Shown here one piece after another: positions 3,752 to 30,290 of a stretch of 34,478 nucleotides of DNA. Within the stretch, counting starts at the first letter, position 1. Every line of letters starts with the position of its first letter. The stretch spans positions 1-34,478 of IMG/VR virus record IMGVR_UViG_3300032305_001786; one strand, 5' to 3'. Both the position numbers and the translations under genes were made by a program. This stretch comes from a virus. Its lineage: Duplodnaviria; Caudoviricetes. The notes below the pieces were generated by a model. That model was given only the letters and a program-made list of their open reading frames with translations. It did no database searches and was not told the DNA's origin.

Positions 3752-3767
3752 TTCTATTTTTTATCAA

Positions 3768-3775
3768 TATTTATA
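3768..3775 (+). promoter_or_regulatory. Putative late promoter motif TATTTATA
   Basis: Intergenic, upstream of the kinase gene. Confidence 0.5.
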
Positions 3776-3817: not shown

Positions 3818-4642
3818 ATGATAAAATTATTAGAATTATTAAAAGAAATTTCCCAAAATAAAATGGTAGTCATGGCTGGTGGAGCTGGAGCTGGGAAATC
3901 ATATTTGCTTAATAAAGTAAAATCAAAAGTACCAGACGCAAAAATACTTAACCCTGACACATATATTGAGGATAAAGATAGTCCAATGTATAATAGTTTG
4001 ACAAAAGCATCAGCTCAAATTGATGATGTTGATGTACCTAATGCTATAAGTAAAGGAGAGTCATTTATTTGGGATACAACAGCGTCAAACGCTGCTAAAA
4101 TGTTAGGTGGAGAATACCGTCGTAAACAAGTTAAAGGTATATTAAATACTGAAGGATATGATGAAATGATGGTAATGGTTTATACGCACCCTATAGTATC
4201 GTTTTTACGTAATTTTAAACGTGAACGTAAAGTACCTACAGTTGGAGTATTATCAACATGGAATAATGTTTATGGTAATATAGAAGCATATAAAAATAAG
4301 TTAGGTGACAATTTTATATTATATCAAGCACCTGACAAAGAATTTCAAACACAAATTGATGAGTTTAATAATGCTATTAAAAGTGGTCAATTAAAAGAAT
4401 TTTTTAATAATTTACTATCTTCAGGTGAATTTAAATCAACATTTAGAAAAGATAAAGTTGAACCACAATCCCCAGAAGAAATAGAAAAAGCTGAAAAAGC
4501 TAAAGCTCAATCAAAAGCATTAGTAGACGCTCAAATTGATAAACTTCAAAAAGAATTTTCAAATATTGAAAATAAAGTTAAAGATTCTATCATCACTGAT
4601 GAGAACGAAGTAATAAATAAAATAGTTAATTTTATAAAATGA
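3818..4642 (+). CDS. P-loop kinase (zeta-toxin/AAA_33-like) with MIKLLELLKE leader
   Basis: Walker A GGAGAGKS, NPD, DTTA, RNFKRERKVP lid motif. ATG 3818 preferred over TTG 3782. Confidence 0.8.
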   Translation: MIKLLELLKEISQNKMVVMAGGAGAGKSYLLNKVKSKVPDAKILNPDTYIEDKDSPMYNSLTKASAQIDDVDVPNAISKGESFIWDTTASNAAKMLGGEYRRKQVKGILNTEGYDEMMVMVYTHPIVSFLRNFKRERKVPTVGVLSTWNNVYGNIEAYKNKLGDNFILYQAPDKEFQTQIDEFNNAIKSGQLKEFFNNLLSSGEFKSTFRKDKVEPQSPEEIEKAEKAKAQSKALVDAQIDKLQKEFSNIENKVKDSIITDENEVINKIVNFIK

Positions 4643-6099
4643 GTTTAGGTAAATATTTAGCTGAAATAATAATTGAACCTACTCCTAAAAAAGTAGCTTT
4701 ATACCCAGGAGCATTCAAACCACCTCATAGAGGTCATTTTGAACTAGTACAACGTTTATCCAAAGTTGCTGATGAAGTATTAATAGTTATTTCACCTATT
4801 GCTCGTGAAGGAATAACAGCGCAACAATCACTATCAGCTTGGAAATTATATTTACCTATGCTACCTAAAGCTAAGGTAGTTATTTCAGATGTGGCTTCAC
4901 CTGTGACATATGTTTATGATTATATAAAAGCTAATCCACAACAAGATATAGTAGTTGCATTTGGTAAAGGTGAAGAGGAACGTTATAAAGCGCTTTTAAA
5001 TAAAGAGAAATACTCAAATATTAAAATATATGACGCTGGTAATATAGGTGGTTTATCCGCATCTAACTTACGTAATTCTATCAAGTCTAATAATCCAACT
5101 GATATAGCTAAATTTTTACCTCAAGGTATTGAAGTAGCAAATTATATGAATGCTTTAAGTTTAAGTTTAAGAACTGAACCTACATTTAATTCAATTACTG
5201 AAAATCAAGATTTAGATTTTAATAATGCGTTATTAGATTTAACAAAATATTATGTTGATAATGGTTATAATGTAAAACCATTACCTAAAGTTATTATTAA
5301 TAATGATGATATTGAAAATGCTTCTAAATTACTAAGTAAAACAGCTTATTATGACCCAACAAATAATTCAATAACTTTATTTACAGCTGGAAGACACCCA
5401 AAAGATATATTAAGATCATTTTCACATGAAATGATTCATCATATACAAAACTTAGAAAATAGATTAAATAATATTAATACAACTAACACTACTGAGGATG
5501 ATTACTTAAGCCAACTTGAACAAGAGGCTTATTTAAAGGGCAACATAGTTCTTAGAAATTGGGAAGATAGTATTAAAAACAATACAGTTATGAATGAACA
5601 AAAAGAAAAATCAAAATTTATAATATTCTGTGATATGGATGGAGTATTAGTAGATTTTGATAAAGGTTATGAAGAATTAACAGGTTTAAACACTAAACAT
5701 GTTGATGTGCAAGATAGTAATGATTTTTGGAATAAATTTAAATCATCACTTGCGGAAAAAAATATGGAAGAATATGACTATTGGGCTAATCTTAAATGGA
5801 TGTCTGATGGTAAACAATTATGGAACTATATAAAATCATATAATCCATATATATTAACAGCTCCATCACGTGATCCTGGCTCGAAATTAGGTAAAAAAGA
5901 ATGGGTAGAACAGTTAGACAATATGAAAAATATATATTTTCGAGCCGCCCAAAATAAACCTGATTTCTCAGGAAAAAATCGTATACTTATTGATGACCGA
6001 GCTGATACTATTGAAAAATGGAATTCTAAAGGTGGAATAGGTATATTACATACTTCTACTGAAAATACAATTGAACAACTTAAAAAACTAGGATTATAA
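4639..6099 (+). CDS. Three-domain protein: HxGH nucleotidyltransferase, zincin-like metallopeptidase, HAD 5'(3')-nucleotidase
   Basis: PGAFKPPHRGH...SASNLR; HEMIHHIQ...EQEAY; DMDGVLVDF...ILTAP...K...LIDDR. Confidence 0.85.
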   Translation: MSLGKYLAEIIIEPTPKKVALYPGAFKPPHRGHFELVQRLSKVADEVLIVISPIAREGITAQQSLSAWKLYLPMLPKAKVVISDVASPVTYVYDYIKANPQQDIVVAFGKGEEERYKALLNKEKYSNIKIYDAGNIGGLSASNLRNSIKSNNPTDIAKFLPQGIEVANYMNALSLSLRTEPTFNSITENQDLDFNNALLDLTKYYVDNGYNVKPLPKVIINNDDIENASKLLSKTAYYDPTNNSITLFTAGRHPKDILRSFSHEMIHHIQNLENRLNNINTTNTTEDDYLSQLEQEAYLKGNIVLRNWEDSIKNNTVMNEQKEKSKFIIFCDMDGVLVDFDKGYEELTGLNTKHVDVQDSNDFWNKFKSSLAEKNMEEYDYWANLKWMSDGKQLWNYIKSYNPYILTAPSRDPGSKLGKKEWVEQLDNMKNIYFRAAQNKPDFSGKNRILIDDRADTIEKWNSKGGIGILHTSTENTIEQLKKLGL

Positions 6100-6641
6100 T
6101 GAATAGAACATTTGAACAAGACTCACCTGAACAAGAACCATCAGGTTTTTCAGCTATGAAAGCTGAATATGATATAGCAGTTACACCTAAAGAATCAATA
6201 GATGATGCTATTGCTGCTTTTAATGATATTAATAATTATGGAATATATGTTTCAAATATAAGAAACACTGGTGTTAATAAAGCTGAAATAAATAAAGCTA
6301 TAGAAGATTACTTTGGTCCTAATATTCCTGCTAAACGTAAATCTATTGAAAAACAAACAGGTAAAACATTTCCAATTAAGACTAAACAAGCTATAGATGA
6401 TTTTATTAAGTCATTTAGTTCAAAACCTAATTTATTAAAATTTGTTGTTAAAGATGATATGTTGGTTTTTCCACAGAAAAATAACCCAACTAAAGATGTA
6501 ACCAAAAAAATAATCAAAACTGTGTTAGACAACGCTGGAGTAGATTATACTGTTAAAGAAAAAGAAACAACTATGGAATCTAAAGATATTAAATCATTAA
6601 AAGAAGAATTAATATCTAAAATATACAAAAAATTAATCTAA
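6099..6641 (+). CDS. Hypothetical protein
   Basis: 180-aa ORF coupled by TAATG; C-terminal amphipathic helix DIKSLKEELISKIYKKLI. Confidence 0.7.
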   Translation: MNRTFEQDSPEQEPSGFSAMKAEYDIAVTPKESIDDAIAAFNDINNYGIYVSNIRNTGVNKAEINKAIEDYFGPNIPAKRKSIEKQTGKTFPIKTKQAIDDFIKSFSSKPNLLKFVVKDDMLVFPQKNNPTKDVTKKIIKTVLDNAGVDYTVKEKETTMESKDIKSLKEELISKIYKKLI

Positions 6642-6647
6642 CATATA

Positions 6648-7220
6648 ATGTTAAATAAAGAGTTTCAAAAAAAAGACGTCCAACGTCTTCGTAATCTTGT
6701 TCAAGGTAAATATGAAGATAAAACAACAGTTGGAGTAGGTTATTCAAAAAAATATATAAATCATAAAGAAGGTGAAGTTTGGGAAGAGAATGGTAGACAA
6801 TGGACTATAAAAAACGGTATAAAACAAAATGTTACTAAGTTAGATTTAGCTAAAGAAGCACATGTTTTACCATTATTGTGTCCTAAATGTACTAAACCAA
6901 TGAAAATACATATTGATAAACCGTTTTATCAAGTACATAAAATGTGTTTAAATTGTGTTACTGAATTTGAAACAAAACTTAAAATTGAAGGCAAGTGGGA
7001 AGATTATCAAAAACAGATGTATAATAATGCTATTAATAATCTCATAAATGACTTTAAAGATTGGGCTGAGGATGAATTAAAAGAAAATAATAAATCATTT
7101 TCAACTGAAGATGGTATTGTTGAAAATTGGGTTGGTGGTAATAAAGATAAACTAAAGAAAAATATTAATGATTCATTAAAATATTTAGAAGATCTTAAAA
7201 ATAACTCAACAAATTTGTAG
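6648..7220 (+). CDS. Hypothetical Zn-finger protein
   Basis: CPKC...CLNC pair; ORF fills the gap between neighbours. Confidence 0.72.
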   Translation: MLNKEFQKKDVQRLRNLVQGKYEDKTTVGVGYSKKYINHKEGEVWEENGRQWTIKNGIKQNVTKLDLAKEAHVLPLLCPKCTKPMKIHIDKPFYQVHKMCLNCVTEFETKLKIEGKWEDYQKQMYNNAINNLINDFKDWAEDELKENNKSFSTEDGIVENWVGGNKDKLKKNINDSLKYLEDLKNNSTNL

Positions 7221-7260
7221 CATAGCTACTATGTTTTACCTAATAAAATAAATATGGGCC

Positions 7261-7479
7261 GTGATCGACAATCAAGAAAAAATAAAAAATTTCAAACTAT
7301 TAAGCCAAATGTTTTTAATGGTTGGTATGTTCTTCAATCCATTAGGATTCGATATCCTTTTTTACTTAGTCATGAGTTTAACCAATTCATATCTGATTAC
7401 AACACTTCTTTTTTACCTGGTATCAGCATGTTGCTTTGGTGGGTATTTCTTCTTACGTAAAAAAATTAAAGAACAATAG
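7261..7479 (+). CDS. Small membrane protein (2-3 hydrophobic segments)
   Basis: Hydrophobic runs MFLMVGMFF, ILFYLVM, LITTLLFYLVSACCFGGYFFL with a basic tail; GTG start uncertain. Confidence 0.6.
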   Translation: MIDNQEKIKNFKLLSQMFLMVGMFFNPLGFDILFYLVMSLTNSYLITTLLFYLVSACCFGGYFFLRKKIKEQ

Positions 7480-7488
7480 GTTTTAACA

Positions 7489-7496
7489 TATTTATA
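7489..7496 (+). promoter_or_regulatory. Putative late promoter motif TATTTATA
   Basis: Intergenic; context ttttaacaTATTTATA is identical to 24131-24146. Confidence 0.7.
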
Positions 7497-7514
7497 CTAT
7501 ATAATATAATCATA

Positions 7515-8168
7515 ATGGAACAATTTAAAAGAATGCAACAATTGGCTGGTTTAATTACTGAAGGTATGGGAGCATACGAATATGAAAAAGGTAAAGAAGC
7601 TGGTGAAAAAGTTGAAAAGAAAAAAATGAAAAAATCTGAATTAAAAAAGCAGATTAAAGAAATGATCTTAGCTGAGATAGATATTGATTTATCTAATGAT
7701 GATAATTTTTATGATCCAGTAGCTGAAGCTAAGAAAAAGAAAAAAGAAGTTGAAGATATTGAAGTAGATACTAATGTTGATATGGGTACTGAAATGGATA
7801 TGGGTACAGAAATGGACACAGCATCAGTTCCAGCAGCATCAGACGTTCAAAAAGAATTAATGGACGCGTTAGAAGCGGCTAAAGCATCAGGTGATGAAAA
7901 ATTAATTCGTCAAATCGGAAACGCATTAACTTACTTCACTCGTAGTCAGGTATCTAAAGAAGAGAATCCACCATCAATGAATGAAGGTATAGAAGATATA
8001 GAAGTATCAGAGGAATCATATGAGCGTATGAATAATTTAGTTAGCCAAGATGACTATAAAAATTTCATTGATTCTGCTACTAATATTATGAATGATTTAA
8101 CCAAAGATGGATTTGAAGTAAAAGAAGCATTCTATTATCTATATACTAGATTAACAGCTGAAATATAA
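7515..8168 (+). CDS. Acidic modular protein with RMQQLAGLITE leader (putative internal head protein)
   Basis: MEQFKRMQQLAGLITEG; second motif MKKSELKKQIKEMILAE; MNE linker. Confidence 0.78.
   Translation: MEQFKRMQQLAGLITEGMGAYEYEKGKEAGEKVEKKKMKKSELKKQIKEMILAEIDIDLSNDDNFYDPVAEAKKKKKEVEDIEVDTNVDMGTEMDMGTEMDTASVPAASDVQKELMDALEAAKASGDEKLIRQIGNALTYFTRSQVSKEENPPSMNEGIEDIEVSEESYERMNNLVSQDDYKNFIDSATNIMNDLTKDGFEVKEAFYYLYTRLTAEI
7779..7814 (+). repeat. 18-bp in-frame tandem repeat (DMGTEM x2)
   Basis: gatatgggtactgaaatg / gatatgggtacagaaatg. Confidence 0.85.
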
Positions 8169-8192
8169 CAAATACAAACCAAATATAAACAA

Positions 8193-8360
8193 ATGAAACA
8201 AGAGTTATTTGAAAAAATGCAACAGACATGGGATATGTTTATAGCAGAGCATAATGGTAAAACTAAAGCAGCTCATAGTCGTGCTAGAAAATTAGCCAGT
8301 GAATTAAAAAAATTAGTAACTGAATATAAAAAAGCTTCAGTTGCTGAATCAAAATTATAA
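8193..8360 (+). CDS. Histone H1-like (Hc1-type) small basic protein, 55 aa, absent from the ORF track
   Basis: MKQELFEKMQQTWDMFIAEHNGKTKAAHSRARKLASELKKLVTEYKKASVAESKL; the KAA-x-x-RARK...EL...L..EY[K/R]KAS pattern is as I recall it for the Bacteroidota Hc1-like family. Confidence 0.75.
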   Translation: MKQELFEKMQQTWDMFIAEHNGKTKAAHSRARKLASELKKLVTEYKKASVAESKL

Positions 8361-8362
8361 TT

Positions 8363-9232
8363 ATGAAAAAATCAGACTTTGTTAAGTTAATAACTGAAAC
8401 ACTTTCAAGTAAATTAAATGAAGAATTCAATCCAGCGGATAAAATAACTCTGGATGTTCCATTATTTATACGTTTATTAGAATACGCTCGTGAAGATGCT
8501 AAAACAGATATGGATTTACATAACGTAACTGAAAAAGCAGTTTCATTAAGTACTGAAGGTAAAATTTTAACAATGAGTGATTATAATAATATAATTGATA
8601 TAAGTAAAGAAAATATGAATGAGATGCTTAATCCTAAATTAGAAAAAATTGCTAATCAAATAAGAGCCAAATTTCCTAAACAAGGTTCATATGATCCTGG
8701 TGAATTATTTGATAAATATATAGGCGATTATAATTTATCCTCAGAAGAAGATAAAATGGAAGTTTATGCTATCATTAGAGATAAAGAAAATGAAGAATTA
8801 GCTGAATCAGCACTTGGTGAAAAGAAATTAACACCAGCTGAACTTAAAAAACGTGAAGAAATAGTTAAATCAATGAAAGATACTTTTAAAGGTCCTAAAG
8901 CTGCTATGTATGCTATAGCAACTGATAAAGCTAAAAAAGTAGCTGAAGATTTAGATATTGGTCATCAAGATGATGAACCAGATATGTTAAAAGCTGATGT
9001 AGCTAGAATAGCAGAATATGCTAACAAATTATACATAATGTTAGATAAATTTGATAAAATGCCTACTGAAGTAGATTTTCCAGATTGGTGGCAATCAAAA
9101 ATTCATATAGCAGCAGAAAATATGGATAAAGCTACACATTATTTAGAATTTGAAATGAAACAACCATCTATAGATAGAAATATTAATTTAGCCGAAAAAA
9201 TAATTAAAAAATTAAAAGCTAAGAAACAATAA
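8363..9232 (+). CDS. Modular hypothetical protein (putative internal head polyprotein)
   Basis: Leader MKKSDFVKLITE...LNEE; modules (LDVPLFIRLLEYARED; LTPAELKKREEIVK...MYAIAT; DDEPDMLK...WWQSKI) separated by MNE/LAE/VAE. Confidence 0.75.
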   Translation: MKKSDFVKLITETLSSKLNEEFNPADKITLDVPLFIRLLEYAREDAKTDMDLHNVTEKAVSLSTEGKILTMSDYNNIIDISKENMNEMLNPKLEKIANQIRAKFPKQGSYDPGELFDKYIGDYNLSSEEDKMEVYAIIRDKENEELAESALGEKKLTPAELKKREEIVKSMKDTFKGPKAAMYAIATDKAKKVAEDLDIGHQDDEPDMLKADVARIAEYANKLYIMLDKFDKMPTEVDFPDWWQSKIHIAAENMDKATHYLEFEMKQPSIDRNINLAEKIIKKLKAKKQ

Positions 9233-9663
9233 TGACTAAACAAGAATTAATAGATAAAATTAAGTTAATCGCTAAAAGTAAATACAAAAAACAAATTGAA
9301 TTTACTTCAGGCGGTAGAACAAATGTTGTTGCTAAATATCCAAGTGTAAATGATGTTTTAGTTGATTTAATGACAGAACAATATGAAATATTTGTTACTG
9401 ACATTGAATGGGTAGCTCCAAAACCAACTACATTTAGAGTAATGTTAGCTAATGGTGAATATTTCTTTTTAACTCATACTGATAGAAGTTGGATAGCACA
9501 AATAGAAGGTAAAAATTTTTATTTATTAAATTTAAGTGAAAGAATAGATGCTATGAATGCTATATCTCGTGTATTAAGATATGGTCAAGGTAAAAATGAA
9601 ACTCCAGGATCTACAGAAGAAGCTCCAGCTGAAGTAACACCAGAAGAATTACCACCAGCATAA
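9232..9663 (+). CDS. Hypothetical protein
   Basis: 143-aa ORF, TAATG coupled; Pro/Glu-rich tail. Confidence 0.72.
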   Translation: MTKQELIDKIKLIAKSKYKKQIEFTSGGRTNVVAKYPSVNDVLVDLMTEQYEIFVTDIEWVAPKPTTFRVMLANGEYFFLTHTDRSWIAQIEGKNFYLLNLSERIDAMNAISRVLRYGQGKNETPGSTEEAPAEVTPEELPPA

Positions 9664-9675
9664 AAATAAAATAAA

Positions 9676-10815
9676 ATGGATGTATTAGATTTGTTTTTCA
9701 AAAAATATTCTTATAAATTTTCTAAAGGATATCCGGACATGAATAATGATCAGGATATTTTATTATTGGAAAATATATTAAATGAATTAGATATAAAAAT
9801 AAGTTTTAACGAAGTGAAAAAACCAATTGATTTTCTCTCAGATGAAGCTAAAAAAATAACACAGAATGTTATTCAAAATTTGAATATTTCTGCAGATGAT
9901 ATTAAAGCTTTATCTAAAAATAAAATAGTAATTTTATCAGATAAACGTCAAAAGATATTTTCTGAATTAGAAAAATTAGGTTATAAACGAGATAGTAATA
10001 TATCTGGTTCATCACAAGGAGGATTTAGAACTGATAATAATATTGAAATATTAGTTAAACCTAAATCAGCTCAAGGTGAAAAATCTGCTGGTAAGCAAAA
10101 TGAATCATCGTTTTTAGATTTAATAAATAATAAAGTTAAAGAAAATGATGGTCCAATTACTGTGATTATCCAGAGTGATAAGAAAAAAATTAAATTTAAT
10201 AATATAGAAGAAGCTAAAGATAGTTCAGTTGAAGGTGCTACACAATTTGCTAAAGCAGATGCTCAATTAGTTGATGATGAAGGTGAAGTGATAGGTAATA
10301 TATCACTTAAAAAACGTAATGCTGTTAGATGGGAAAGTTCAAAAACTAGAGAAATTGACGGTATTAATGTGTTTAAAAACTTTATTCAAAAAGTATCAAA
10401 TAATGTATTTCCAAATGTAAGTTTAAAACCGCTTGATAAGAAAAATAAATTTAAATTATATAATCCTCAAACTAATAAAGTATTATCTAAAGTAATCATT
10501 AAAAATACTCCTTCAGATGTAGTTAATGATGTAATATTTGGTAATGATGTTCCTAAAACTATAGTTATTAAAGAAGATTTTGAAAACTTTTCTAATTATA
10601 CTTTTGAAAACGGAGTTTTAGTTATTAATTGTTACAAAATATATACTGATGTTAAAGATATTATGGGTACTGATGATGAACCAGTATATGCATTTTCAAA
10701 TCATATTGGACAAGCATATGGTATCGAATTCAGATCATTCAGTAAAGGATTACTATACAAAGATGATTCATTAAAAGGTTCTAGTGAAGAAATAGATTTT
10801 AAAGATCTAAAATAA
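9676..10815 (+). CDS. Putative PD-(D/E)XK restriction-endonuclease-like protein
   Basis: AGKQNE...KADAQL...ISLKK fits the E...(P/A)D...(E/S)xK catalytic pattern; N-terminal segment ends ILLLENILNE. Confidence 0.55.
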   Translation: MDVLDLFFKKYSYKFSKGYPDMNNDQDILLLENILNELDIKISFNEVKKPIDFLSDEAKKITQNVIQNLNISADDIKALSKNKIVILSDKRQKIFSELEKLGYKRDSNISGSSQGGFRTDNNIEILVKPKSAQGEKSAGKQNESSFLDLINNKVKENDGPITVIIQSDKKKIKFNNIEEAKDSSVEGATQFAKADAQLVDDEGEVIGNISLKKRNAVRWESSKTREIDGINVFKNFIQKVSNNVFPNVSLKPLDKKNKFKLYNPQTNKVLSKVIIKNTPSDVVNDVIFGNDVPKTIVIKEDFENFSNYTFENGVLVINCYKIYTDVKDIMGTDDEPVYAFSNHIGQAYGIEFRSFSKGLLYKDDSLKGSSEEIDFKDLK

Positions 10816-10818
10816 AAA

Positions 10819-10826
10819 TATTTATC
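10819..10826 (+). promoter_or_regulatory. Variant late motif TATTTATC
   Basis: In a 14-nt intergenic gap, 3 nt before ATG 10830. Confidence 0.5.
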
Positions 10827-10829
10827 ATC

Positions 10830-11918
10830 ATGGATAAATTAAGACAAATAATTCGAGAAATAGCTAAACAACGTAATCTTAAACCAGATTGTGGTTGCGG
10901 ATGTAGTGGTAAATGTGGAGGTGAAAAAGCACCAATGATAAATGAAAATTTATCACGCAAACCCTTATTAAGTGAACATTTACAATACCATGTTGATAAT
11001 AAAAAACCATTAACTGAAAATACATTTCGTTATGGTTCTACTTCATTTCTTAGTTTATGGAAAGAAGCTAGAAAATTATACTCACGTAACTTACTTGAAG
11101 TATCAGGTTTAGATAAAGACATTATTGTTGAAACCAATTTAGGTGAATATGGTATATATGAAGGTCAAAAAGTACCATTAGATTTACCTATGATTGAAGA
11201 AGGTCAAATGTTAGATAATTATGAAGTTGATTTTTTTCATACTAAAGCTAATGTATATGCTAATATAGAAATACCTAGTGAAAATCCAACATTTAAAGAT
11301 GATATTCAAATAAAAGGAATAGGCAAAACTGAAGAAGAAGCATTTGAAGATTTAAAACAAAATTATAATAGTTACAAGAAAACAGGAGTAAATGAAGCTG
11401 AGTTTAAAAATACTCATAAAATTACATTAACTTTTGATGATGAAAGATTTATAAAAAGAATTCAAACTATCCCTACATTTCAAAAAATGTTAGCTCCTAA
11501 CCAAATTAAAAATTTAAAAGTAGGAGATAATGAATTAGTTGTAAATAATGTAGCTTTAAATGGTTTAGAACGTATGGAGTCTACAGGTCTTTATAAATTA
11601 AAAAAGAATATTAATGAAGCTGAATATCAAGGTAAAGAGGTTCAACTTAATAAACCTAAACGTGGTGGTTCAAAGAAATTCTACGTTTATGTTATGAATC
11701 CTAAAACTAAAAAAGTTAAAAAAGTACAGTTTGGAGCGGCAGGTGGAGGTCAAAACTTAGCAGTTAAACTTAGAGATCCTAAAGCACGTAAAGCATTTGC
11801 GGCACGTCAAAACTGTGATAAGAAAAAAGACAGAACAACACCTGGTTACTGGAGTTGTAATATAGGAAGATATTGGAAGTCATTAGGTGGAGGTTCAAAT
11901 TTTAGCGGGTATTGGTAA
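10830..11918 (+). CDS. Modular hypothetical protein with basic C-terminal domain common in T4-like phages
   Basis: Leader MDKLRQIIREI; CGCGCSGKCGG; INE/IEE/VNE/INE linkers; C-terminal KKFYVYV...VQFG...ARKAFAARQNC...GYWSC. Confidence 0.78.
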   Translation: MDKLRQIIREIAKQRNLKPDCGCGCSGKCGGEKAPMINENLSRKPLLSEHLQYHVDNKKPLTENTFRYGSTSFLSLWKEARKLYSRNLLEVSGLDKDIIVETNLGEYGIYEGQKVPLDLPMIEEGQMLDNYEVDFFHTKANVYANIEIPSENPTFKDDIQIKGIGKTEEEAFEDLKQNYNSYKKTGVNEAEFKNTHKITLTFDDERFIKRIQTIPTFQKMLAPNQIKNLKVGDNELVVNNVALNGLERMESTGLYKLKKNINEAEYQGKEVQLNKPKRGGSKKFYVYVMNPKTKKVKKVQFGAAGGGQNLAVKLRDPKARKAFAARQNCDKKKDRTTPGYWSCNIGRYWKSLGGGSNFSGYW

Positions 11919-11919
11919 T

Positions 11920-12270
11920 ATGAAACTATCAGAATTAAAACAACTTATTAGAGAAGAATACAGTTCAGCTTCAAAACTATACGAAATTGAAGGTGTTATT
12001 GTTATTGATACAGACACAGCATTTCATAAACAAATTATGTCTGATGTTCGTGCTGTTAAAGGAATAACAATTGTGAAGGATTATATTTATGAACCTGTAG
12101 GTGCAGCCGCTAATAGAGGATACGCTGATTTAGTTATTAAAATAGATCCATCTCCATTCAAACAAATGAAAGCACAAGATATTGTTGACCAAGTAGTTAA
12201 TGATATTAAAAGTGTTAAAGGTGTTAGAGCATTTAAAGTAAAAAAAGGACCATTTCAAGTTAATGTATAA
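11920..12270 (+). CDS. Hypothetical protein with MKLSELKQLIREE leader
   Basis: ATG 11920 follows stop 11918; internally repeated (V/I)(R/K)(A/S)VKG(I/V) motif. Confidence 0.72.
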   Translation: MKLSELKQLIREEYSSASKLYEIEGVIVIDTDTAFHKQIMSDVRAVKGITIVKDYIYEPVGAAANRGYADLVIKIDPSPFKQMKAQDIVDQVVNDIKSVKGVRAFKVKKGPFQVNV

Positions 12271-12728
12271 TGGATTTACATAAATTAGTTAAAGAAATAT
12301 TAAACGAAAAGAAAGTAAAACGTGACAGATGTTTACGTATTGCTGACCGTAAGTTTGATAAACCATCTGCTTACAAATCTGGTGCTGTAGTTAGATGCCG
12401 TCAAGGTAAAATATGGAAAGGTATTAAAGAAACAAATGATCCACAATCAGGTAAAGCAGCTCCATATGGATCAGGATATTCTAAATTAAAAGAATTAATT
12501 CAAGAAATTATAAATGAAGATGAATCACTTTATAAATGGTTCAAACGTTCTGGTCCTAAAGGTAAAGAAGGTGGATGGGTAGATTGTAACGCACCTGATG
12601 GTAAAGGTGGATATAAAGCATGTGGTAGAAAAAAAGGTGAAAAACGAGCCAAATACCCATCATGTCGCCCAACACCATCTAAATGTAAATCACCAGGTAA
12701 AGGTAAAAAATGGGGGAAAACAAAATGA
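12270..12728 (+). CDS. Basic Cys-containing modular protein
   Basis: Leader MDLHKLVKEILNE; internal LKELIQEIINE; modules RDRC...SAYKSGAVVRCR and SLYKWF...WVDC...CGR...YPSCRP. Confidence 0.75.
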   Translation: MDLHKLVKEILNEKKVKRDRCLRIADRKFDKPSAYKSGAVVRCRQGKIWKGIKETNDPQSGKAAPYGSGYSKLKELIQEIINEDESLYKWFKRSGPKGKEGGWVDCNAPDGKGGYKACGRKKGEKRAKYPSCRPTPSKCKSPGKGKKWGKTK

Positions 12729-13294
12729 TAAAATTATTAGGTATATTAAGTGAAATATTATCTGAAAATGATCCTAAAATAGGTACAGGCAAAAAACCTA
12801 AAGGATCAGGACGTCGTTTATACACAGATGAAGATCCTAAAGATACTGTATCTATTAAATTTAAAACTAAAGAAGATATAGTTAATACTTTAAATAAAAA
12901 ATCATTTAAATCTAAACCTCATAATCGTCAATCTCAAATTATTAATGTAATCCACCAACGAGTTAGAGCTGCTTACAATAAAGCAAAAGATCCTGAAGTG
13001 AAATCTAGATTAAAACGTGCTTTAGATTATATTGAAAAACGTAAAGAGACATCTAAAGAAAAAACTCAACATTTAAAAAATTTAAAAGAATTAGTAACAG
13101 CTACAGAAGTTATTTGTGATAATTGTGGTTGGGAATGGAAAATATCTCAAGGTGGTAAAGATCCATATTTATGTCATAAATGTGATTATGATAATACTCC
13201 AAAACAATTAAATGAAAAATGTTGGAAAGGATATACTCAAAAAGGTATGAAAACAATGTTTGGTAAAAAATATCCAAATTGTGTAAAAAAATAA
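12725..13294 (+). CDS. Basic modular protein with MIKLLGILSE leader, Zn ribbon and C-terminal CWKGY...PNCVK module
   Basis: ATGA overlap start at 12725; CDNC...CHKC; LSE/LKE/LNE linkers. Confidence 0.75.
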   Translation: MIKLLGILSEILSENDPKIGTGKKPKGSGRRLYTDEDPKDTVSIKFKTKEDIVNTLNKKSFKSKPHNRQSQIINVIHQRVRAAYNKAKDPEVKSRLKRALDYIEKRKETSKEKTQHLKNLKELVTATEVICDNCGWEWKISQGGKDPYLCHKCDYDNTPKQLNEKCWKGYTQKGMKTMFGKKYPNCVKK

Positions 13295-13304
13295 AAAACA
13301 ACTT

Positions 13305-13793
13305 ATGATAAAACTTATATCATTACTTAAAGAAATAGGAGAAGGTGTACCACCTTATAAATGGAGCGGCCCAGAAGAAAAATCTGGTGGTATAATTTAT
13401 TATTTTACAACTGAAGATAATGATTATTATAGAGTAAGATTTGATGGTACTATAGGTAATGGCTGGGAATTAAATTTTTATGTAAGAGATGAATATGAAT
13501 ATTCTTCAGGCGCCATAACTAATAAAGGACGCCAATTTAAAATAATTTCTACGATAATGGATATCATAAAATCATTTATTGAAGAATACCCCGCAGATTT
13601 AATTATATTTACTGGTTCTAATAAAGAAGGTTCAACAACAAACCAACGAGATCTTTTATATAAGAGATATATTGAGAAAAACATTAATCAACTTCCAGGT
13701 TGGGATACAAATGTCGGAATGCCTGGTCAATCAGGACATCTTTCTTTGTTTAGAGAAGAACCATTACCAGGAATGGAACTTAAACCAAATTAA
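13305..13793 (+). CDS. Hypothetical protein with MIKLISLLKE leader
   Basis: 162-aa ORF; IIFTG...QRDLLYKRY motif. Confidence 0.72.
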   Translation: MIKLISLLKEIGEGVPPYKWSGPEEKSGGIIYYFTTEDNDYYRVRFDGTIGNGWELNFYVRDEYEYSSGAITNKGRQFKIISTIMDIIKSFIEEYPADLIIFTGSNKEGSTTNQRDLLYKRYIEKNINQLPGWDTNVGMPGQSGHLSLFREEPLPGMELKPN

Positions 13794-13821
13794 AAATAAT
13801 AGTTAAATTAATAAATAAAAT

Positions 13822-14250
13822 ATGATAAAACTTATTAATATATTAAACGAAGCAGAATTAAATAAATGCCCCGCTCCTACTCAAAACATTGAGTTAAATC
13901 TTAAAAATAGACAAAAGGCTATAAATGAATATGGATATGGTCCTTTAAATCCTAATGAACCAAATGAAAAGTTCTGGGATGCTAAAGTAAAAATGTGGAA
14001 ATTAGATTCTGCAGAAGAAGCTAAAAAATCTCTTTGTGGAAACTGCGCTGCGTTTGATATAACAACTAAAACATTAGATTGTATAGCTAAAGGTATTGGA
14101 GATGATGAAGGTTCAGAAAATCCTTATGATGTAATTAATGCTGGTAAATTAGGATACTGTAGATTCTTAAAGTTTAAATGCGCGGCGGCTAGAACATGTG
14201 ATGCATGGGTTGTAGGTGGACCTATTAAGGATTCTAAGAAGTCAAAATAG
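13822..14250 (+). CDS. Cys-rich hypothetical protein with MIKLINILNE leader
   Basis: CGNC...GYC...KC...RTCDAW; possible metal or Fe-S binding. Confidence 0.72.
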   Translation: MIKLINILNEAELNKCPAPTQNIELNLKNRQKAINEYGYGPLNPNEPNEKFWDAKVKMWKLDSAEEAKKSLCGNCAAFDITTKTLDCIAKGIGDDEGSENPYDVINAGKLGYCRFLKFKCAAARTCDAWVVGGPIKDSKKSK

Positions 14251-24162: not shown

Positions 24163-25017
24163 ATGTTAATAAAACATAATAAATTCAAAAACTCAGGCTT
24201 AATATTTGAACTATTAGTTAGACAAATTACAGCAGACACATTATCAGGTAAAGAGTCACCATCAATTAATATTTTAAAAAAATATTTTGTTAAAACAGAA
24301 TTAAGTAAAGAATATAAATTATATGATACTGTGTTAAAACAGTCTCAAATTACAGAAGCTAAAGCTAATATGATCATTGAAGAAGTATTAAAAGCATCTC
24401 GTAAATTGAATAGAACTATTTTACGTAAAGAAAAGTATAATTTAATTAGTGAAATTAAATCTCATTATAATTTAGATGAGTTTTTTAGAACTAAACTTCC
24501 AAATTATACATCTCAAGCTGCATTATATACATTAATTGAAATATATAATAATCAAGAATTAACAGATCCTAACCAAATTATTTCTAATAAAATAACATTA
24601 TTAGAAAATTTAACTGCTCAACCAGTTAAAGAAAAGGAAGTTAGAGAGAATATTATTGAAGAGTTTAAAAAATATGATAAAGATTTACGTCTATTAACAT
24701 ATCAAGTTTTATTAGAAAAATTTAATGGTAAATATAATTCTTTAAATGATAATCAAAAGGTAGTATTAAGAGAATTTATCAACTTAGTAGATAATACCCC
24801 ACGTTTAAGAGAATTTTATAACATTAAAATTAATGAAATTAAAACTCAATTAACTAAATTAAATAAATCAGTTACTGATAAAGTAACTCAAATTAAGTTA
24901 AATGAAGTTATATCATTAATCACAGAAATTAATAAAACTTCAAAAATATCAAATGATGATTTAGTAAATTTATTACAATACTATTCATTAGTTGATGAAT
25001 TAAAATCAGTAAAATGA
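24163..25017 (+). CDS. Alpha-helical prohead-associated protein (hypothetical)
   Basis: Lies between portal and protease, the position of T4 core genes 67/68; Leu/Lys/Glu rich. Confidence 0.7.
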   Translation: MLIKHNKFKNSGLIFELLVRQITADTLSGKESPSINILKKYFVKTELSKEYKLYDTVLKQSQITEAKANMIIEEVLKASRKLNRTILRKEKYNLISEIKSHYNLDEFFRTKLPNYTSQAALYTLIEIYNNQELTDPNQIISNKITLLENLTAQPVKEKEVRENIIEEFKKYDKDLRLLTYQVLLEKFNGKYNSLNDNQKVVLREFINLVDNTPRLREFYNIKINEIKTQLTKLNKSVTDKVTQIKLNEVISLITEINKTSKISNDDLVNLLQYYSLVDELKSVK

Positions 25018-25360: not shown

Positions 25361-26788
25361 ATGAGAAATACACTTCAAGAACAATACAATTCAATTAAAG
25401 AAGGCAAAGGAGCTAAAGATGTGTTTTTAAAACACGCTAAATCTTTATTCCCAAATTTAATACCTAATCATTATGAATTTAATTCAGCATCTAAAATACT
25501 TCTTCAACGTGGTATTATATCTGAAAACATGATCCTAAATGAAAACTTATGGGGTATAACTACAGGTAATAATAAACAACCTGATTGGTTTAAACTATTT
25601 AATGAAAATATAGTTACAGAACTTAATTATTATGATGTAGCTAAATCTATAAACAAAGAATATAATCCTAACATTTATAAAGATGAATTGAACGATTTCT
25701 TATATGATGAAGCAAGTATTAATGCTATTAATAGTGGATCAGATATACTTACTACATTTAAGAAATTTTTAGGTGTAATTAAAGAATCTAAAGAATATAA
25801 TGCTTCATCTGAAGAAAAAGAAACTAAAGCTGATGCTTCTAAACCATCTAAAGAAGTAGATGAATATAAAGAAAAATCTGCTAGTAAACAATATGAAGCA
25901 GAAACTGGTAATGATGTTATTTTTGACCAATACTTAAATGGTATTCAAATTGAAACAAATAAATCAGAAAATAACAGTAAAACTGTTGATGAATTAAAGA
26001 AAATTGTATTAAAGAATCTTAAAAAAGATAACTTATACTATACTAAAAACGCTGCTTTCGGTATTGAAGGTATTGGATATACAGACGAAGCACCAGGTTT
26101 AGGTAAAACTAAAGAAGTAAAAGGTAAATACGCTTCATCAGGTATGGAACCAGTTAAATTAAAAGAAGGTATTGGAATGTTTAATGATCCTATAGGATTT
26201 AAAAAACCTGAATTAAGTGATATAGATAAAATGTTTACTAAAGAATATAAAGGTGACGGAATATATGTAATCTTTAAAAATGGTAAAGAAGTTAAAACTA
26301 TTAAAGGTGAAGGTAACGCTAACGCATGGATAAATGATCAAAAAAGAAATATGAAATTACAAGAATCTCAATTACGATCAGTAATTCGTCAATTAATTAA
26401 AGAAGAACTTAATTTAAAAGAAATCGATCAAATCGGTGAAGAAGCCGCTAAAGAAGCTAAAGTTAAGAAAATTAGCGACGAAATTAATAAACGTAAGAAA
26501 AAAATCAAAGCGTTAGAAACATTAAAAGAATTAGAAGATGATTCAATTAATCCTAAAAAATTAAAAGAATTATATTCTGAAATTAAAAAACTTGAAGCTG
26601 CTAAAAACAAACTTGAGAAAAAAGGTAAGAAAAAAGAAACATTAGTAGACGAAGTTACTGTTATAGATAAAACTACTACTAGTGATGAAGTAGCTGATAT
26701 TGCTAAACAAGAAAAAACTACACCTGCCGCTGTAAAACAAGCAATTAGTACTGCTAAAACTTCAGGTAAACCAGTAAATGTAGCTTAA
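25361..26788 (+). CDS. Large modular prohead core/internal protein (hypothetical)
   Basis: Many [L/I]-x-E sites; internal LQESQLRSVIRQLIKEEL motif; coiled-coil C-terminus; directly upstream of the protease. Confidence 0.72.
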   Translation: MRNTLQEQYNSIKEGKGAKDVFLKHAKSLFPNLIPNHYEFNSASKILLQRGIISENMILNENLWGITTGNNKQPDWFKLFNENIVTELNYYDVAKSINKEYNPNIYKDELNDFLYDEASINAINSGSDILTTFKKFLGVIKESKEYNASSEEKETKADASKPSKEVDEYKEKSASKQYEAETGNDVIFDQYLNGIQIETNKSENNSKTVDELKKIVLKNLKKDNLYYTKNAAFGIEGIGYTDEAPGLGKTKEVKGKYASSGMEPVKLKEGIGMFNDPIGFKKPELSDIDKMFTKEYKGDGIYVIFKNGKEVKTIKGEGNANAWINDQKRNMKLQESQLRSVIRQLIKEELNLKEIDQIGEEAAKEAKVKKISDEINKRKKKIKALETLKELEDDSINPKKLKELYSEIKKLEAAKNKLEKKGKKKETLVDEVTVIDKTTTSDEVADIAKQEKTTPAAVKQAISTAKTSGKPVNVA

Positions 26789-26789
26789 A

Positions 26790-27404
26790 ATGAAACAAGT
26801 ATTAATAGAAACAATACCATTTATAGTATCTCGCCAACAGTTAACTGAAGGTGTTAAAACAGCGGCTGGTAACCCGATTGTTGAAGGAATATTAGCTACA
26901 GCCGAGGTAAAAAATGGTAATGGTCGCTATTATAAAAAAGAACTTTGGGAACGTGAAATAGACAAATATATGTCTTGTGTTAAAGAAAATAGAGCACTAG
27001 GTGAATTAGACCATCCTGAATCTTCTATTATTAACTTAAAAAACGTATCTCACAATATAGTAGATATTTGGTGGAATGGAGATAAAGTAATGGGTAAACT
27101 AGAAATATTACCTACTCCATCTGGTAATATTGTTAAAGCACTTATTGACAATAATATTACTATAGGTGTGTCTTCACGTGGTATGGGTAGTTTAAAATCA
27201 CTTGGAGAAACAATGGAAGTACAAGATGATTTTGAACTATTATGCTGGGACTTTGTATCAACACCTTCAAACCCAGGCTCATGGATGCAAGTAACTAAAG
27301 GTGGTTTAAATGAAGGTTTAATTCACAACACTAACCCATACATTAAAGTAAATTCAGTTATAACAGATATACTTTGTGCTAATGGAACTTGTCCAATATT
27401 TTAA
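26790..27404 (+). CDS. Prohead core protease (T4 gp21-like)
   Basis: KNGNGRYY, ALGELDHP, VSH, TPSG, GVSSRGMGS, WDFVSTPS. Confidence 0.96.
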   Translation: MKQVLIETIPFIVSRQQLTEGVKTAAGNPIVEGILATAEVKNGNGRYYKKELWEREIDKYMSCVKENRALGELDHPESSIINLKNVSHNIVDIWWNGDKVMGKLEILPTPSGNIVKALIDNNITIGVSSRGMGSLKSLGETMEVQDDFELLCWDFVSTPSNPGSWMQVTKGGLNEGLIHNTNPYIKVNSVITDILCANGTCPIF

Positions 27405-27611: not shown

Positions 27612-28583
<972 letters not shown>

Positions 28584-28616: not shown

Positions 28617-30290
28617 ATGAACTCAATTCAATCATTATTAGAAGGTGCTAACCCATGGAAAGCTCTTCAAAGTGACGCAACCCGTTTAGCTGCTAAATGG
28701 GGTAAGACAGGTTTGTTAGAAGGTTTAAAAACAGAAACCGAAAAAAACAACATGTCTATGATGCTTGAAAATCAAGCAAAACAATTAGTAATGGAAACTT
28801 CACAAACTGGTGCTGGTACTGCAGGCGCTGCTTTTACCGCTGGTGTTGGTGAACAATGGGCTGGTGTAGCTCTTCCATTAGTACGTAAAGTATTTGGTCA
28901 AATCGCTGCTAAAGAATTTGTTAGCGTTCAACCAATGAATTTACCTTCAGGTCTAGTATTTTTCTTAGACTTCCAATATGGTACAACTAAATCTCCATTT
29001 AACAATGCTGCTGGTGCTGGTTTTTATGGTACTGAATCAGTATATGGTGTAACTAACCCAGGAGCTAATGCTTCTGCAAATGGTGGTTTATATGGTGCTG
29101 GTCGTTTCAGTTACTCTATTAACAACACATCTTCATTTAGCTCAGCTACTGTAGCTTCAGCTTCATGGTCTGATTTTAACTTTGATTCTAACTACTCAGC
29201 TTCAGCTACAGTTGCTGAAGGTACTCAATGGAAAAAATTAACTATCACCTTACCTTCAAACACAGATTTTAATGGTGTACGTGCTTTCACTATCGCTTCA
29301 CAATCTGGTTTCCAACCAGCAGATATTCAAGCTGCTTATACTACTACAACTGGTACTGTATTTAGTGGTACAACAGGAACAGTTACTTTCTTAGTTACTG
29401 GTTCTAAAGTAGGTCAAGTTGCTACATTAGCTAATGTAACTGCTTCATTCCAATTACAACCAACTGATCAATTACGTGGTGATTTCGAAGATGGCAACAC
29501 TAGCTTAAACACTAATAACAACCCAATCTCAATTCCTGAAATCAACGTAAAAATGAAATCAGAGCCAATTGTAGCTAAAACTCGTAAGTTAAGAGCTGTT
29601 TGGACACCTGAATTCGCTCAAGATTTAAATGCTTACCATGCGTTAGATGCAGAAGCTGAATTAACTAGTATCATGAGTGAGTACATCTCATTAGAGGTTG
29701 ACTTAGAAATCTTAGATATGTTAATCCAAAATGCTTCAGCTGGTACTGAGTATTGGTCAGCAATTAACAACATTGCTTTTACAAGTGCAACTGGTAATGG
29801 AACTACAACTAACTTAGGATTTTACAATACTCAAGGTGGTTGGTTCCAAACTTTAGGAACTAAAATGCAGAAATTAAGTAATATCATCCACCAGAAAACA
29901 TTACGTGGTGGTGCTAACTTCTTAGTATGTTCTCCAACAGTAGCTACTGTTCTTGAATCAATTCCTGGATTTGCTACTAGCGCTAAAGGTGATGCTGCTC
30001 AAATGACTTATGCTTTTGGTGTACAGAAAGTTGGTAACTTAAACAATCAATATGATGTTTACAAAAATCCATACATGATTGAAAATACTATCTTAATGGG
30101 CTTCAAAGGTAAACAATTCTTAGAAACTGGTGCTGTTTTTGCTCCTTACATTCCGTTAATCATGACTCCACTTGTATACGATCCAGATACTTTCACTCCA
30201 CGTAAAGGTTTATTAACTCGTTATGCTAAGAAAATGGTTCGTCCTGAATTCTATGGTAAAATCTTAGTAAGTGGTTTAAATACCCTTTAA
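28617..30290 (+). CDS. Major capsid protein (T4 gp23-like)
   Basis: KWGKTGLLEG, LENQ, VSVQPMNLPSGLVF, AKTRKLRAVWTPEFAQDLNAYH, DAEAEL, FAPYIPL, TRYA. Confidence 0.98.
   Translation: MNSIQSLLEGANPWKALQSDATRLAAKWGKTGLLEGLKTETEKNNMSMMLENQAKQLVMETSQTGAGTAGAAFTAGVGEQWAGVALPLVRKVFGQIAAKEFVSVQPMNLPSGLVFFLDFQYGTTKSPFNNAAGAGFYGTESVYGVTNPGANASANGGLYGAGRFSYSINNTSSFSSATVASASWSDFNFDSNYSASATVAEGTQWKKLTITLPSNTDFNGVRAFTIASQSGFQPADIQAAYTTTTGTVFSGTTGTVTFLVTGSKVGQVATLANVTASFQLQPTDQLRGDFEDGNTSLNTNNNPISIPEINVKMKSEPIVAKTRKLRAVWTPEFAQDLNAYHALDAEAELTSIMSEYISLEVDLEILDMLIQNASAGTEYWSAINNIAFTSATGNGTTTNLGFYNTQGGWFQTLGTKMQKLSNIIHQKTLRGGANFLVCSPTVATVLESIPGFATSAKGDAAQMTYAFGVQKVGNLNNQYDVYKNPYMIENTILMGFKGKQFLETGAVFAPYIPLIMTPLVYDPDTFTPRKGLLTRYAKKMVRPEFYGKILVSGLNTL

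What the first reader, a model, noticed from the sequence alone, without database searches (positions are those of the whole stretch)
3818..14250. Third leader class MIKLxx[LI]LxE on a kinase and three adjacent unrelated ORFs
Seen: 3818 MIKLLELLKE, 12725 MIKLLGILSE, 13305 MIKLISLLKE and 13822 MIKLINILNE. All four are exactly 10 residues ending in L-x-E and all start atgataaaa. The MCP begins similarly (MNSIQSLLE). Established: the T4 capsid targeting sequence is also about 10 aa and ends at a gp21 cleavage Glu. Inference: a CTS-equivalent cassette grafted onto different cargo genes.
Basis: partly seen in the sequence, partly recalled or inferred. Interest (0 to 1): 0.8.

Follow-up and report, generated by a model that had tools for sequence, protein, structure and literature searches.

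The report
Capsid-loading tag on swappable phage cargo
Four unrelated proteins of a T4-like phage begin with the same ten-residue peptide, built like the tag T4 uses to load proteins into its head, so they are likely packed into the capsid and likely clipped free by the head protease.

Summary
The four MIKLxx[LI]LxE starts are real: 4 matches, 0 in 100 shuffles. The window is the head region of a T4-like phage; its nearest cultured relative by capsid protein is Flavobacterium phage immuto_2-6A. The leader has hydrophobic residues at 4, 7 and 8 and Glu at 10, the register of T4's capsid-targeting sequence (CTS). It matches the cleaved T4 gp24 propeptide at 6 of 10 residues. The peptide is conserved, not the DNA. 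It heads about 120 cargo clusters in related contigs and lies outside the predicted cargo folds. It is missing from 5 of 6 cargo homologues in phages with no detected gp21-type protease. The same cargo modules also occur inside polyproteins right after [LIVM]xE. One module of ORF 12725 is found in two cyanophage proteins detected in virions. Corrections: this is one spelling of a core shared with the MKKSELRQLIKEE class, and the capsid protein's N-terminus is in another register (Glu9). Packaging and cleavage are inferred, not measured. Verdict: new variant of the T4 CTS. This scan has noted the same system on other DNA several times.

The parts
3818..3847 (+). Leader MIKLLELLKE
   Evidence: predicted separate helix 2-9 with the lowest pLDDT block (67)
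3818..4642 (+). Cargo 1: P-loop kinase, 274 aa; substrate unknown
   Evidence: Pfam Zeta_toxin E 8e-8 from residue 12; closest folds bacterial polynucleotide kinase Z 13.6, rmsd 3.0, 156 aligned, model range from residue 12
12725..12754 (+). Leader MIKLLGILSE, followed by a second site ILSE (Glu14)
   Evidence: the extra four residues are an indel among relatives
12725..13294 (+). Cargo 2: basic (pI 9.7) three-module protein: DPKxGTG module, CxxC/CxxC module, CWKGY module
   Evidence: its only four [LI]xE sites (10, 14, 122, 164) all fall at module borders; last module hits S-CREM2 gp160 (E 2.6e-8) and S-SCSM1 ORF29 (20 of 26 identical)
13082..13090 (+). Internal predicted cut site LKE122 before the CxxC module
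13208..13216 (+). Internal predicted cut site LNE164 before the CWKGY module
13305..13334 (+). Leader MIKLISLLKE
   Evidence: pLDDT block 56, helix 4-13
13305..13793 (+). Cargo 3: DUF6934 protein with a weakly GNAT-like predicted fold, 162 aa
   Evidence: Pfam DUF6934 E 5e-9; best VIA Z 7.3-7.8, a middling score; homologue in cultured immuto_2-6A gp231 begins MIKLIDLLTE
13822..13851 (+). Leader MIKLINILNE
13822..14250 (+). Cargo 4: Cys-rich protein, 142 aa; GenBank homologues are labelled high-potential iron-sulfur protein, which Pfam does not support
26790..27404 (+). gp21-type prohead protease, the predicted cutter
   Evidence: PF03420 E 2e-29; 30% identical to T4 gp21, His75 and Ser128 align with T4 His85 and Ser140
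27612..28583 (+). Scaffold-like core protein; N-terminus MTNRDLLKEA, C-terminus RFQKLAGII
   Evidence: position between protease and capsid gene, 5.9 [LI]xE per 100 aa; conserved ends in relatives
28617..30290 (+). Major capsid protein gp23; LLE9 site, not in leader register
   Evidence: PF07068
8363..19449 (+). Further ORFs whose starts carry the same h-x-x-h-h-x-E core: 8363, 10830, 11920, 12270, 14980, 19414 (also 4639, upstream of this span)
3767..3774 (+). ATATTTAT motif 43 bases before 3818, a candidate late promoter element also found before the portal and other head genes
   Evidence: function inferred

Best explanation
The ten-residue leader is likely a capsid-targeting propeptide that brings each cargo protein into the prohead core and is likely removed by the phage's gp21-type protease after Glu10. 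Shown: the shared peptide, its T4-like register, the protease gene, the interchange of cargo behind the leader, and LxE at module joints. Inferred: the short amphipathic helix (Leu4, Leu/Ile7, Leu8) docks on a core protein during head assembly. On maturation the protease cuts at L-x-E, freeing the cargo and splitting modular proteins such as ORF 12725. The mature pieces stay with the DNA, and the enzymes among them would be injected at infection. New genes gain a place in the virion by landing behind such a leader.
For: Register: T4 IPII/IPIII begin MKTYQEFIAE and gp24 MAKINELLRE. In IPIII, residues 4 and 7 carry targeting and 8 and 10 processing, and gp21 cuts after L/I-X-E (PMC9026906 passages). 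gp24 loses its first 10 residues (PMC9958956 passages). Conservation: 108 of 120 kinase homologues and 24 of 26 DUF6934 homologues, found with the leader left out of the query, keep the exact 10-residue register while positions 5, 6 and 9 vary in the kinase set. Peptide rather than DNA is kept. Breadth: 118 of 124 unique pattern hits in viral contigs have no in-frame ATG upstream and fall in 66 cargo clusters. 368 of 2801 unique ORFs carry it, in 122 of 852 clusters, and 8 clusters with it also use another leader type. Appendage: the leader is a separate low-confidence helix and solved folds align from residue 12-18. Controls: the DPK module in HTVC033P and 4 of 5 homologues of 13822 lack the leader in phages with no PF03420 match. 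Joints: internal copies of five modules follow [LIVM]xE in 40/41, 24/24, 6/8, 14/14 and 8/9 contexts against a background of 0.12-0.20. Virion link: in S-CREM2 the register marks 4 of 13 non-structural virion proteins against 4 of 129 undetected proteins, Fisher p 0.0025; the CWKGY module occurs in S-CREM2 gp160, detected in virions, and in S-SCSM1 ORF29, labelled virion protein in GenBank. Location: in complete relative G001, 14 of 39 ORFs beside the head genes have leader-type starts against 5 of 178 elsewhere.
Against: No cleavage, packaging or injection has been measured for this phage or, in my searches, for any Immutovirus-like phage. The leader shares only 3 of 10 residues with the IPII/IPIII CTS and has Leu where T4 has Tyr and Phe. 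9 of 13 non-structural S-CREM2 virion proteins miss the strict register, and both cyanophage papers say such proteins may be co-purified. S-SCSM1 ORF29 has no such leader at its own start. 14 of 104 distant kinase homologues with a P-loop match are leaderless (4 look truncated) and their origin could not be established. One of the five 13822 controls has a loose register match (MPVMVSE), and the PF03420 search rang in none of those five records, so absence there rests on the positive control. Counts over contigs are not independent, loci were fetched with this pattern or these cargos, and the G001 region was delimited after looking.
Confidence: 0.72

Rival explanations
1. The leader is a protease-removable tag that works in the cell late in infection, for example holding cargo inactive or tethered until the prohead protease is active, and the cargo is not retained in virions.
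For: All sequence evidence for an LxE cut fits this equally. Cyanophage authors allow co-purification. T4 gp21 can cut a host protein when co-expressed (PMC12991175 passages).
Against: Positions 4 and 7, the T4 targeting positions, are as conserved as the cut site. In S-CREM2 the register is enriched among virion-detected proteins.
Confidence: 0.12
2. The leader does bring proteins into the prohead, but most cargos are scaffold-like or DNA-neutralising filler that is degraded or never injected; many tags are vestigial passengers.
For: Several cargos are short basic modules (pI 9.3-10) and 97 of 119 cargo representatives have no Pfam hit. T4 gp22, gp67 and gp68 are degraded.
Against: Cargo includes intact enzyme domains: two ADP-ribosyltransferases, a NUDIX hydrolase, a lysozyme and an M23 peptidase. 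In ORF 12725 all four [LI]xE sites lie at module borders.
Confidence: 0.1
3. The repeat is a DNA or RNA expression cassette: an A-rich start that favours translation in a host without Shine-Dalgarno sites.
For: All four start ATGATAAAA with A-rich upstream DNA; only 12 of 178 leaders have an SD-like word.
Against: Synonymous codons vary freely: Ile2 uses three codons and Leu4 at least five. LxE recurs at internal module joints where no initiation is needed.
Confidence: 0.05
4. Chance similarity among K/L/I/E-rich starts in an AT-rich genome.
For: GC is 27-29% around the four genes; a loose register occurs in 3% of unrelated S-CREM2 proteins.
Against: 0 matches in 100 shuffles against 4 seen, all at ORF starts; about 1400 stretches estimated in viral contigs.
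Confidence: 0.01

Closest known systems
Capsid targeting sequence (CTS) of phage T4 internal proteins IPI, IPII, IPIII (and Alt)
   Same: Ten residues at the N-terminus, hydrophobic at 4, 7 and 8, Glu at 10, shared by unrelated proteins, in a genome with a gp21-type protease. The idea that the CTS lets T4-like phages load varied proteins is already in print (PMC9026906).
   Different: Aliphatic (MIKLxxLLxE) rather than aromatic (MKTYQEFIAE); 3 of 10 identical. Far more cargo families, several leader types in one genome, genes beside the head module, and cargo modules chained through LxE joints. Nearest cultured relative infects Flavobacterium. Not tested experimentally.
Ten-residue propeptide of T4 vertex protein gp24 (MAKINELLRE)
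   Same: 6 of 10 residues identical to the 3818 leader, same register, known to be removed by gp21.
   Different: gp24 is a shell protein; here the peptide heads enzymes and small basic modules.
Propeptides of ejection proteins of giant phages SPN3US and phiKZ
   Same: Removal after Glu by a prohead protease; identical N-termini on diverged head proteins (PMC5694885 passages).
   Different: Those propeptides are mostly over 100 residues and cut at A-X-E or S/A/G-X-E.
Non-structural virion proteins of T4-like cyanophages S-CREM2 and S-SCSM1
   Same: Kinase, cytidylyltransferase and basic modular proteins detected in virions; four S-CREM2 ones begin MK[DRN][FL]xxFLxE; CWKGY module shared.
   Different: The sections and passages I read do not mention a targeting leader or processing.

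Membership tests
T4-type capsid targeting sequence | About ten residues at the true N-terminus | tested here: met
   (118 of 124 without upstream in-frame ATG); 12725 has a minor alternative ATG
T4-type capsid targeting sequence | Hydrophobic residues at targeting positions 4 and 7 | tested here: met
   L4 and L/I7 in all four and in 108 of 120 kinase homologues; positions
T4-type capsid targeting sequence | L/I-X-E at residues 8-10 | tested here: met
T4-type capsid targeting sequence | Shared by proteins otherwise unrelated | tested here: met
T4-type capsid targeting sequence | gp21-type protease with catalytic His and Ser in the same genome | tested here: met
T4-type capsid targeting sequence | Leader dispensable for the cargo fold | tested here: met
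   predicted models and fold matches start after the leader; leaderless homologues exist
T4-type capsid targeting sequence | Cargo present in virions | tested here: inconclusive
   only indirect: one shared module and register enrichment in cyanophage virion proteomes
T4-type capsid targeting sequence | Actual cleavage after Glu10 during maturation | not testable with these tools
   needs virion N-terminal mass spectrometry
T4-type capsid targeting sequence | Sufficient to package a foreign protein; binds the scaffolding core | not testable with these tools
   needs a reporter fusion
T4-type capsid targeting sequence | Cargo injected with the DNA | not testable with these tools
   needs infection experiments
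T-even IP leader in the strict sense (MKT[YF]xEF) | Aromatic residues at 4 and 7 and sequence likeness to IPII/IPIII | tested here: not met
   3 of 10 identical, Leu/Ile at 4 and 7
Capsid-protein N-terminus as the same leader | h4-h7-h8-E10 register | tested here: not met
   0 of 55 related capsid N-termini; all have Glu9

The most novel reading that the evidence does not exclude
Immutovirus-like phages run an open, plug-in payload system: a reusable ten-codon leader acts as head address, protease site and recombination landing pad, so that well over a hundred enzyme and peptide families (ADP-ribosyltransferases, kinases, NUDIX, GNAT-like, metal-binding peptides) are loaded, cut apart at LxE joints and injected as a first-strike host-takeover and anti-defence kit. 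The leader would then be a search handle for injected anti-defence proteins of Bacteroidota phages.
Probability: 0.35. Interest if true: 0.7.

Novelty: new variant of a known kind. Interest (0 to 1): 0.42.

Why it matters
T4's three internal proteins each block a host restriction enzyme and share only their leader (PMC12373910 passages). If this leader works the same way, it flags about 120 mostly unannotated families as candidate virion-delivered proteins in a widespread group of large aquatic phages. It would also explain why kinases and nucleotidyltransferases keep appearing in T4-like virion proteomes. A cultured phage, immuto_2-6A, carries the same leader on a homologue of ORF 13305, so one mass-spectrometry run can test it. 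The mechanism itself is T4's, known since the 1990s, so the surprise lies in scale and modularity rather than in principle.

Tried and rejected
Complex prediction of the 12725 leader (residues 1-32) with the scaffold-like protein and ORF 24163 gave no answer (score 0.06, mark 0.32); it is not used as evidence. Searches for cellular homologues of the kinase found nothing useful: no match in complete bacterial and archaeal genomes, one weak 43-residue hit in the species genome collection, no close PDB sequence, and no origin for leaderless relatives. A count of the leader pattern in cellular genomes was not obtained, so that control is open. The ESM Atlas gave only unnamed viral clusters for 13822 and nothing for 24163. 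The GNAT-like match for 13305 stays below Z 8. No A_AAA_AAG slippery site in frame was found near the ends of 22 window ORFs. The DNA-identity profile for same-upstream, different-cargo pairs (242 pairs, 14 groups) falls to background at codon 11-12, but this follows partly from how pairs were chosen, so it does not prove crossover in the leader. Literature searches found no paper describing this leader or a virion proteome for immuto phages; the library lacks most subscription papers. Repoila et al. 1994 was not held.
Full report
Context. The window is the whole held record. It carries a T4-like head module: terminase, portal (PF07230), prohead protease (PF03420), a scaffold-like gene and gp23. 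By capsid protein the nearest cultured phage is Flavobacterium phage immuto_2-6A at 56% identity, with similar gene order. The host is therefore likely a member of the Bacteroidota (inference).

Observation. The four leaders are exactly as described, and the pattern has 4 matches against 0 in 100 shuffles. They share 19-25 of 30 bases, with background identity downstream. ORF 12725 has an alternative ATG at 12710; the ATGA overlap and its absence in several relatives favour 12725. The window holds more leader-type starts: 14 of 42 ORFs match either the h-x-x-h-h-x-E core or an R-M-Q-K-L-A-G type. MKKSELRQLIKEE-type starts have the same core, so the 'third class' is its shortest spelling. The capsid protein has LLE9, and 0 of 55 relatives are in the leader register.

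Spread. Of 124 unique hits, 118 have no upstream in-frame ATG, and they form 66 cargo clusters. Over all fetched loci, 368 of 2801 unique ORFs carry the leader, in 122 of 852 clusters; 9 clusters use two or more leader types, 8 of them including this one. These loci were fetched with the pattern, the protease or the cargos, so the proportions are not population estimates. I scanned 119 of the 122 cluster representatives: 97 have no Pfam hit at E 0.001. Hits above cut-off include ADPrib_exo_Tox, ART-PolyVal, NUDIX, phage lysozyme, peptidase M23, DUF5824, DUF6267 and DUF6934. In G001, a complete 154.8 kb relative, leader-type starts occur in 14 of 39 ORFs at 52.7-83 kb and 5 of 178 elsewhere; the borders were chosen after looking.

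Peptide, not DNA. Among homologues found with the leader left out of the query, 108 of 120 kinases and 24 of 26 DUF6934 proteins keep the exact register; the rest are truncated, extended or variant. In 178 leaders from protein-found loci, Ile2 uses three codons and Leu4 at least five. Among 150 distant kinase relatives, 46 gave no P-loop pattern match. Of the other 104, 72 have a hydrophobic-x-E leader of some type, 14 are leaderless, 9 internal and 9 other.

An appendage. AlphaFold2 models show the leader as a short helix with low confidence: pLDDT 67 against 88 or more elsewhere for the kinase, and 56 for 13305. Solved P-loop kinases align from residue 12 onward (best: bacterial polynucleotide kinase, Z 13.6, rmsd 3.0, 156 residues). 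GNAT-like chains align from residue 15-18, at Z below 8. In HTVC033P, with no PF03420 match while immuto rang as control, the first module of 12725 starts without a leader. Five of the seven GenBank homologues of 13822 were examined; none of the five records has a PF03420 match, four lack the leader and one has a loose match.

Joints. The same modules occur inside proteins of up to about 1200 residues. Internal copies follow [LIVM]xE within 8 residues in 40/41, 24/24, 6/8, 14/14 and 8/9 unique contexts, against 0.12-0.20 at random positions of the same proteins; the contexts are related by descent. All four [LI]xE sites of ORF 12725 lie at module borders. The same upstream gene end is followed by the leader and then different cargo in 14 groups, one with 7 cargo families; the window's 13305 pairs with L292 in this way. 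This fits cargo exchange at the leader but does not prove it.

Comparison with T4. From the T4 record, IPII and IPIII begin MKTYQEFIAE and gp24 MAKINELLRE. Passages of PMC9026906 give residues 4 and 7 for targeting, 8 and 10 for processing, L/I-X-E as the gp21 motif, and propose the CTS as a way for T4-like phages to load varied proteins. Passages of PMC9958956 state that gp24 loses 10 residues. Passages of PMC12373910 state that Ip1-3 share only the leader and inhibit GmrSD enzymes. The window protease aligns with gp21 at His85 and Ser140, the residues mutated in the dead enzyme in PMC12991175 passages. Mullaney and Black 1996 and Repoila 1994 were not read; they are cited through these papers.

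Virion link. From PMC10665884 I read sections 18 and 19 and tested 153 S-CREM2 ORFs in two fetched stretches, out of about 219. The register marks 4 of 13 non-structural virion proteins, 4 of 129 undetected proteins (Fisher p 0.0025) and 0 of 11 structural proteins. The last module of 12725 matches S-CREM2 gp160, detected in virions, and S-SCSM1 ORF29, labelled virion protein in GenBank (PMC9602691 passages). Both papers caution about co-purification. No supplements were read; supplementary proteome tables could bear on the virion link.

Mechanism and odds. Most likely (0.72) the leader docks the cargo on the prohead core, the protease cuts after Glu10 and at internal LxE joints, and the mature pieces stay in the head. 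Injection of the enzymes is a further inference. Rivals are intracellular processing (0.12), filler or vestigial cargo (0.10), an expression cassette (0.05) and chance (0.01). The receptor is unknown.

Novelty. It works like the T4 CTS and meets every sequence criterion except strict T-even likeness; cleavage and packaging are untested. Searches found no paper on this leader in Immutovirus-like phages. Earlier notes of this scan describe the same system on other DNA; they are unchecked AI notes and are not counted as support. Cultured immuto_2-6A gp231 is a homologue of 13305 (hhalign probability 98.6) and begins MIKLIDLLTE, which makes the test direct. Score: new variant of a known kind, interest 0.42.

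Noticed in passing
window 1239, 7515, 16243 and scaffold end near 28560-28583: A second leader type, F-x-R-M-Q-K-L-A-G-L-x-x-E, repeats the C-terminus of the scaffold-like protein (RFQKLAGII), which is kept in 54 of 54 related scaffolds. It may address cargo through a different docking site.
   Followed up: partly
window, + strand: 3767, 7488, 10818, 19391, 22235, 24138, 25337, 30345, 31048 and others: ATATTTAT occurs 20 times on the + strand and 4 on the - strand, 12 of the 20 between genes, often 4-20 bases before a start, including the portal. Candidate late promoter; it resembles the reverse complement of the T4 late promoter (recalled, not from a call).
   Followed up: partly
window 4639-6099: Cytidylyltransferase-like plus NT5C-like fusion with a register-matching start and an MNE site at 318-320 just before the NT5C part; immuto encodes the parts as gp088 and gp087. 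Such nucleotidyltransferases recur in cyanophage virion proteomes.
   Followed up: partly
window 24163-25017: Conserved 284-aa protein between portal and protease, 5.6 [LI]xE per 100 aa, with no Pfam, PHROG or Atlas hit. Candidate prohead core protein and possible leader receptor.
   Followed up: partly
window 25361-26788, residues about 330-351: An internal MKLQESQLRSVIRQLIKEE stretch repeats the MKKSELRQLIKEE leader type inside a head-region protein.
   Followed up: no
window 12270-12728 and 10830-11918: Basic modular proteins with LxE joints; two short motifs of 12270 recur in S-SCSM1 ORF29 (weak matches).
   Followed up: partly
window 8193-8360: Histone H1-like Hc1 match (E 1.4e-7) in the middle of the cargo cluster, without a leader.
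   Followed up: no
L039:175-2016, L027:473-1530, L061:282-2776: Runs of three or four nearby genes each starting MIKLK[DE]L[IL]xE, MIKLKQLIKE, MIKLKDILME or MIKLIDILNE, including a NUDIX hydrolase.
   Followed up: no
L207:1803; L206 (record 103806, 117631, 118632, 125241): A further leader type MENFDLKKFLVE in immuto_2-6A, also seen on relatives of 13822; it is absent from this window.
   Followed up: partly
L372:14609-19236 and L371:3837-13331 (S-CREM2): Virion-detected SAM hydrolase-labelled, kinase and cytidylyltransferase proteins begin MK[DRN]FxxFLxE, a CTS-like start not mentioned in the sections I read.
   Followed up: partly
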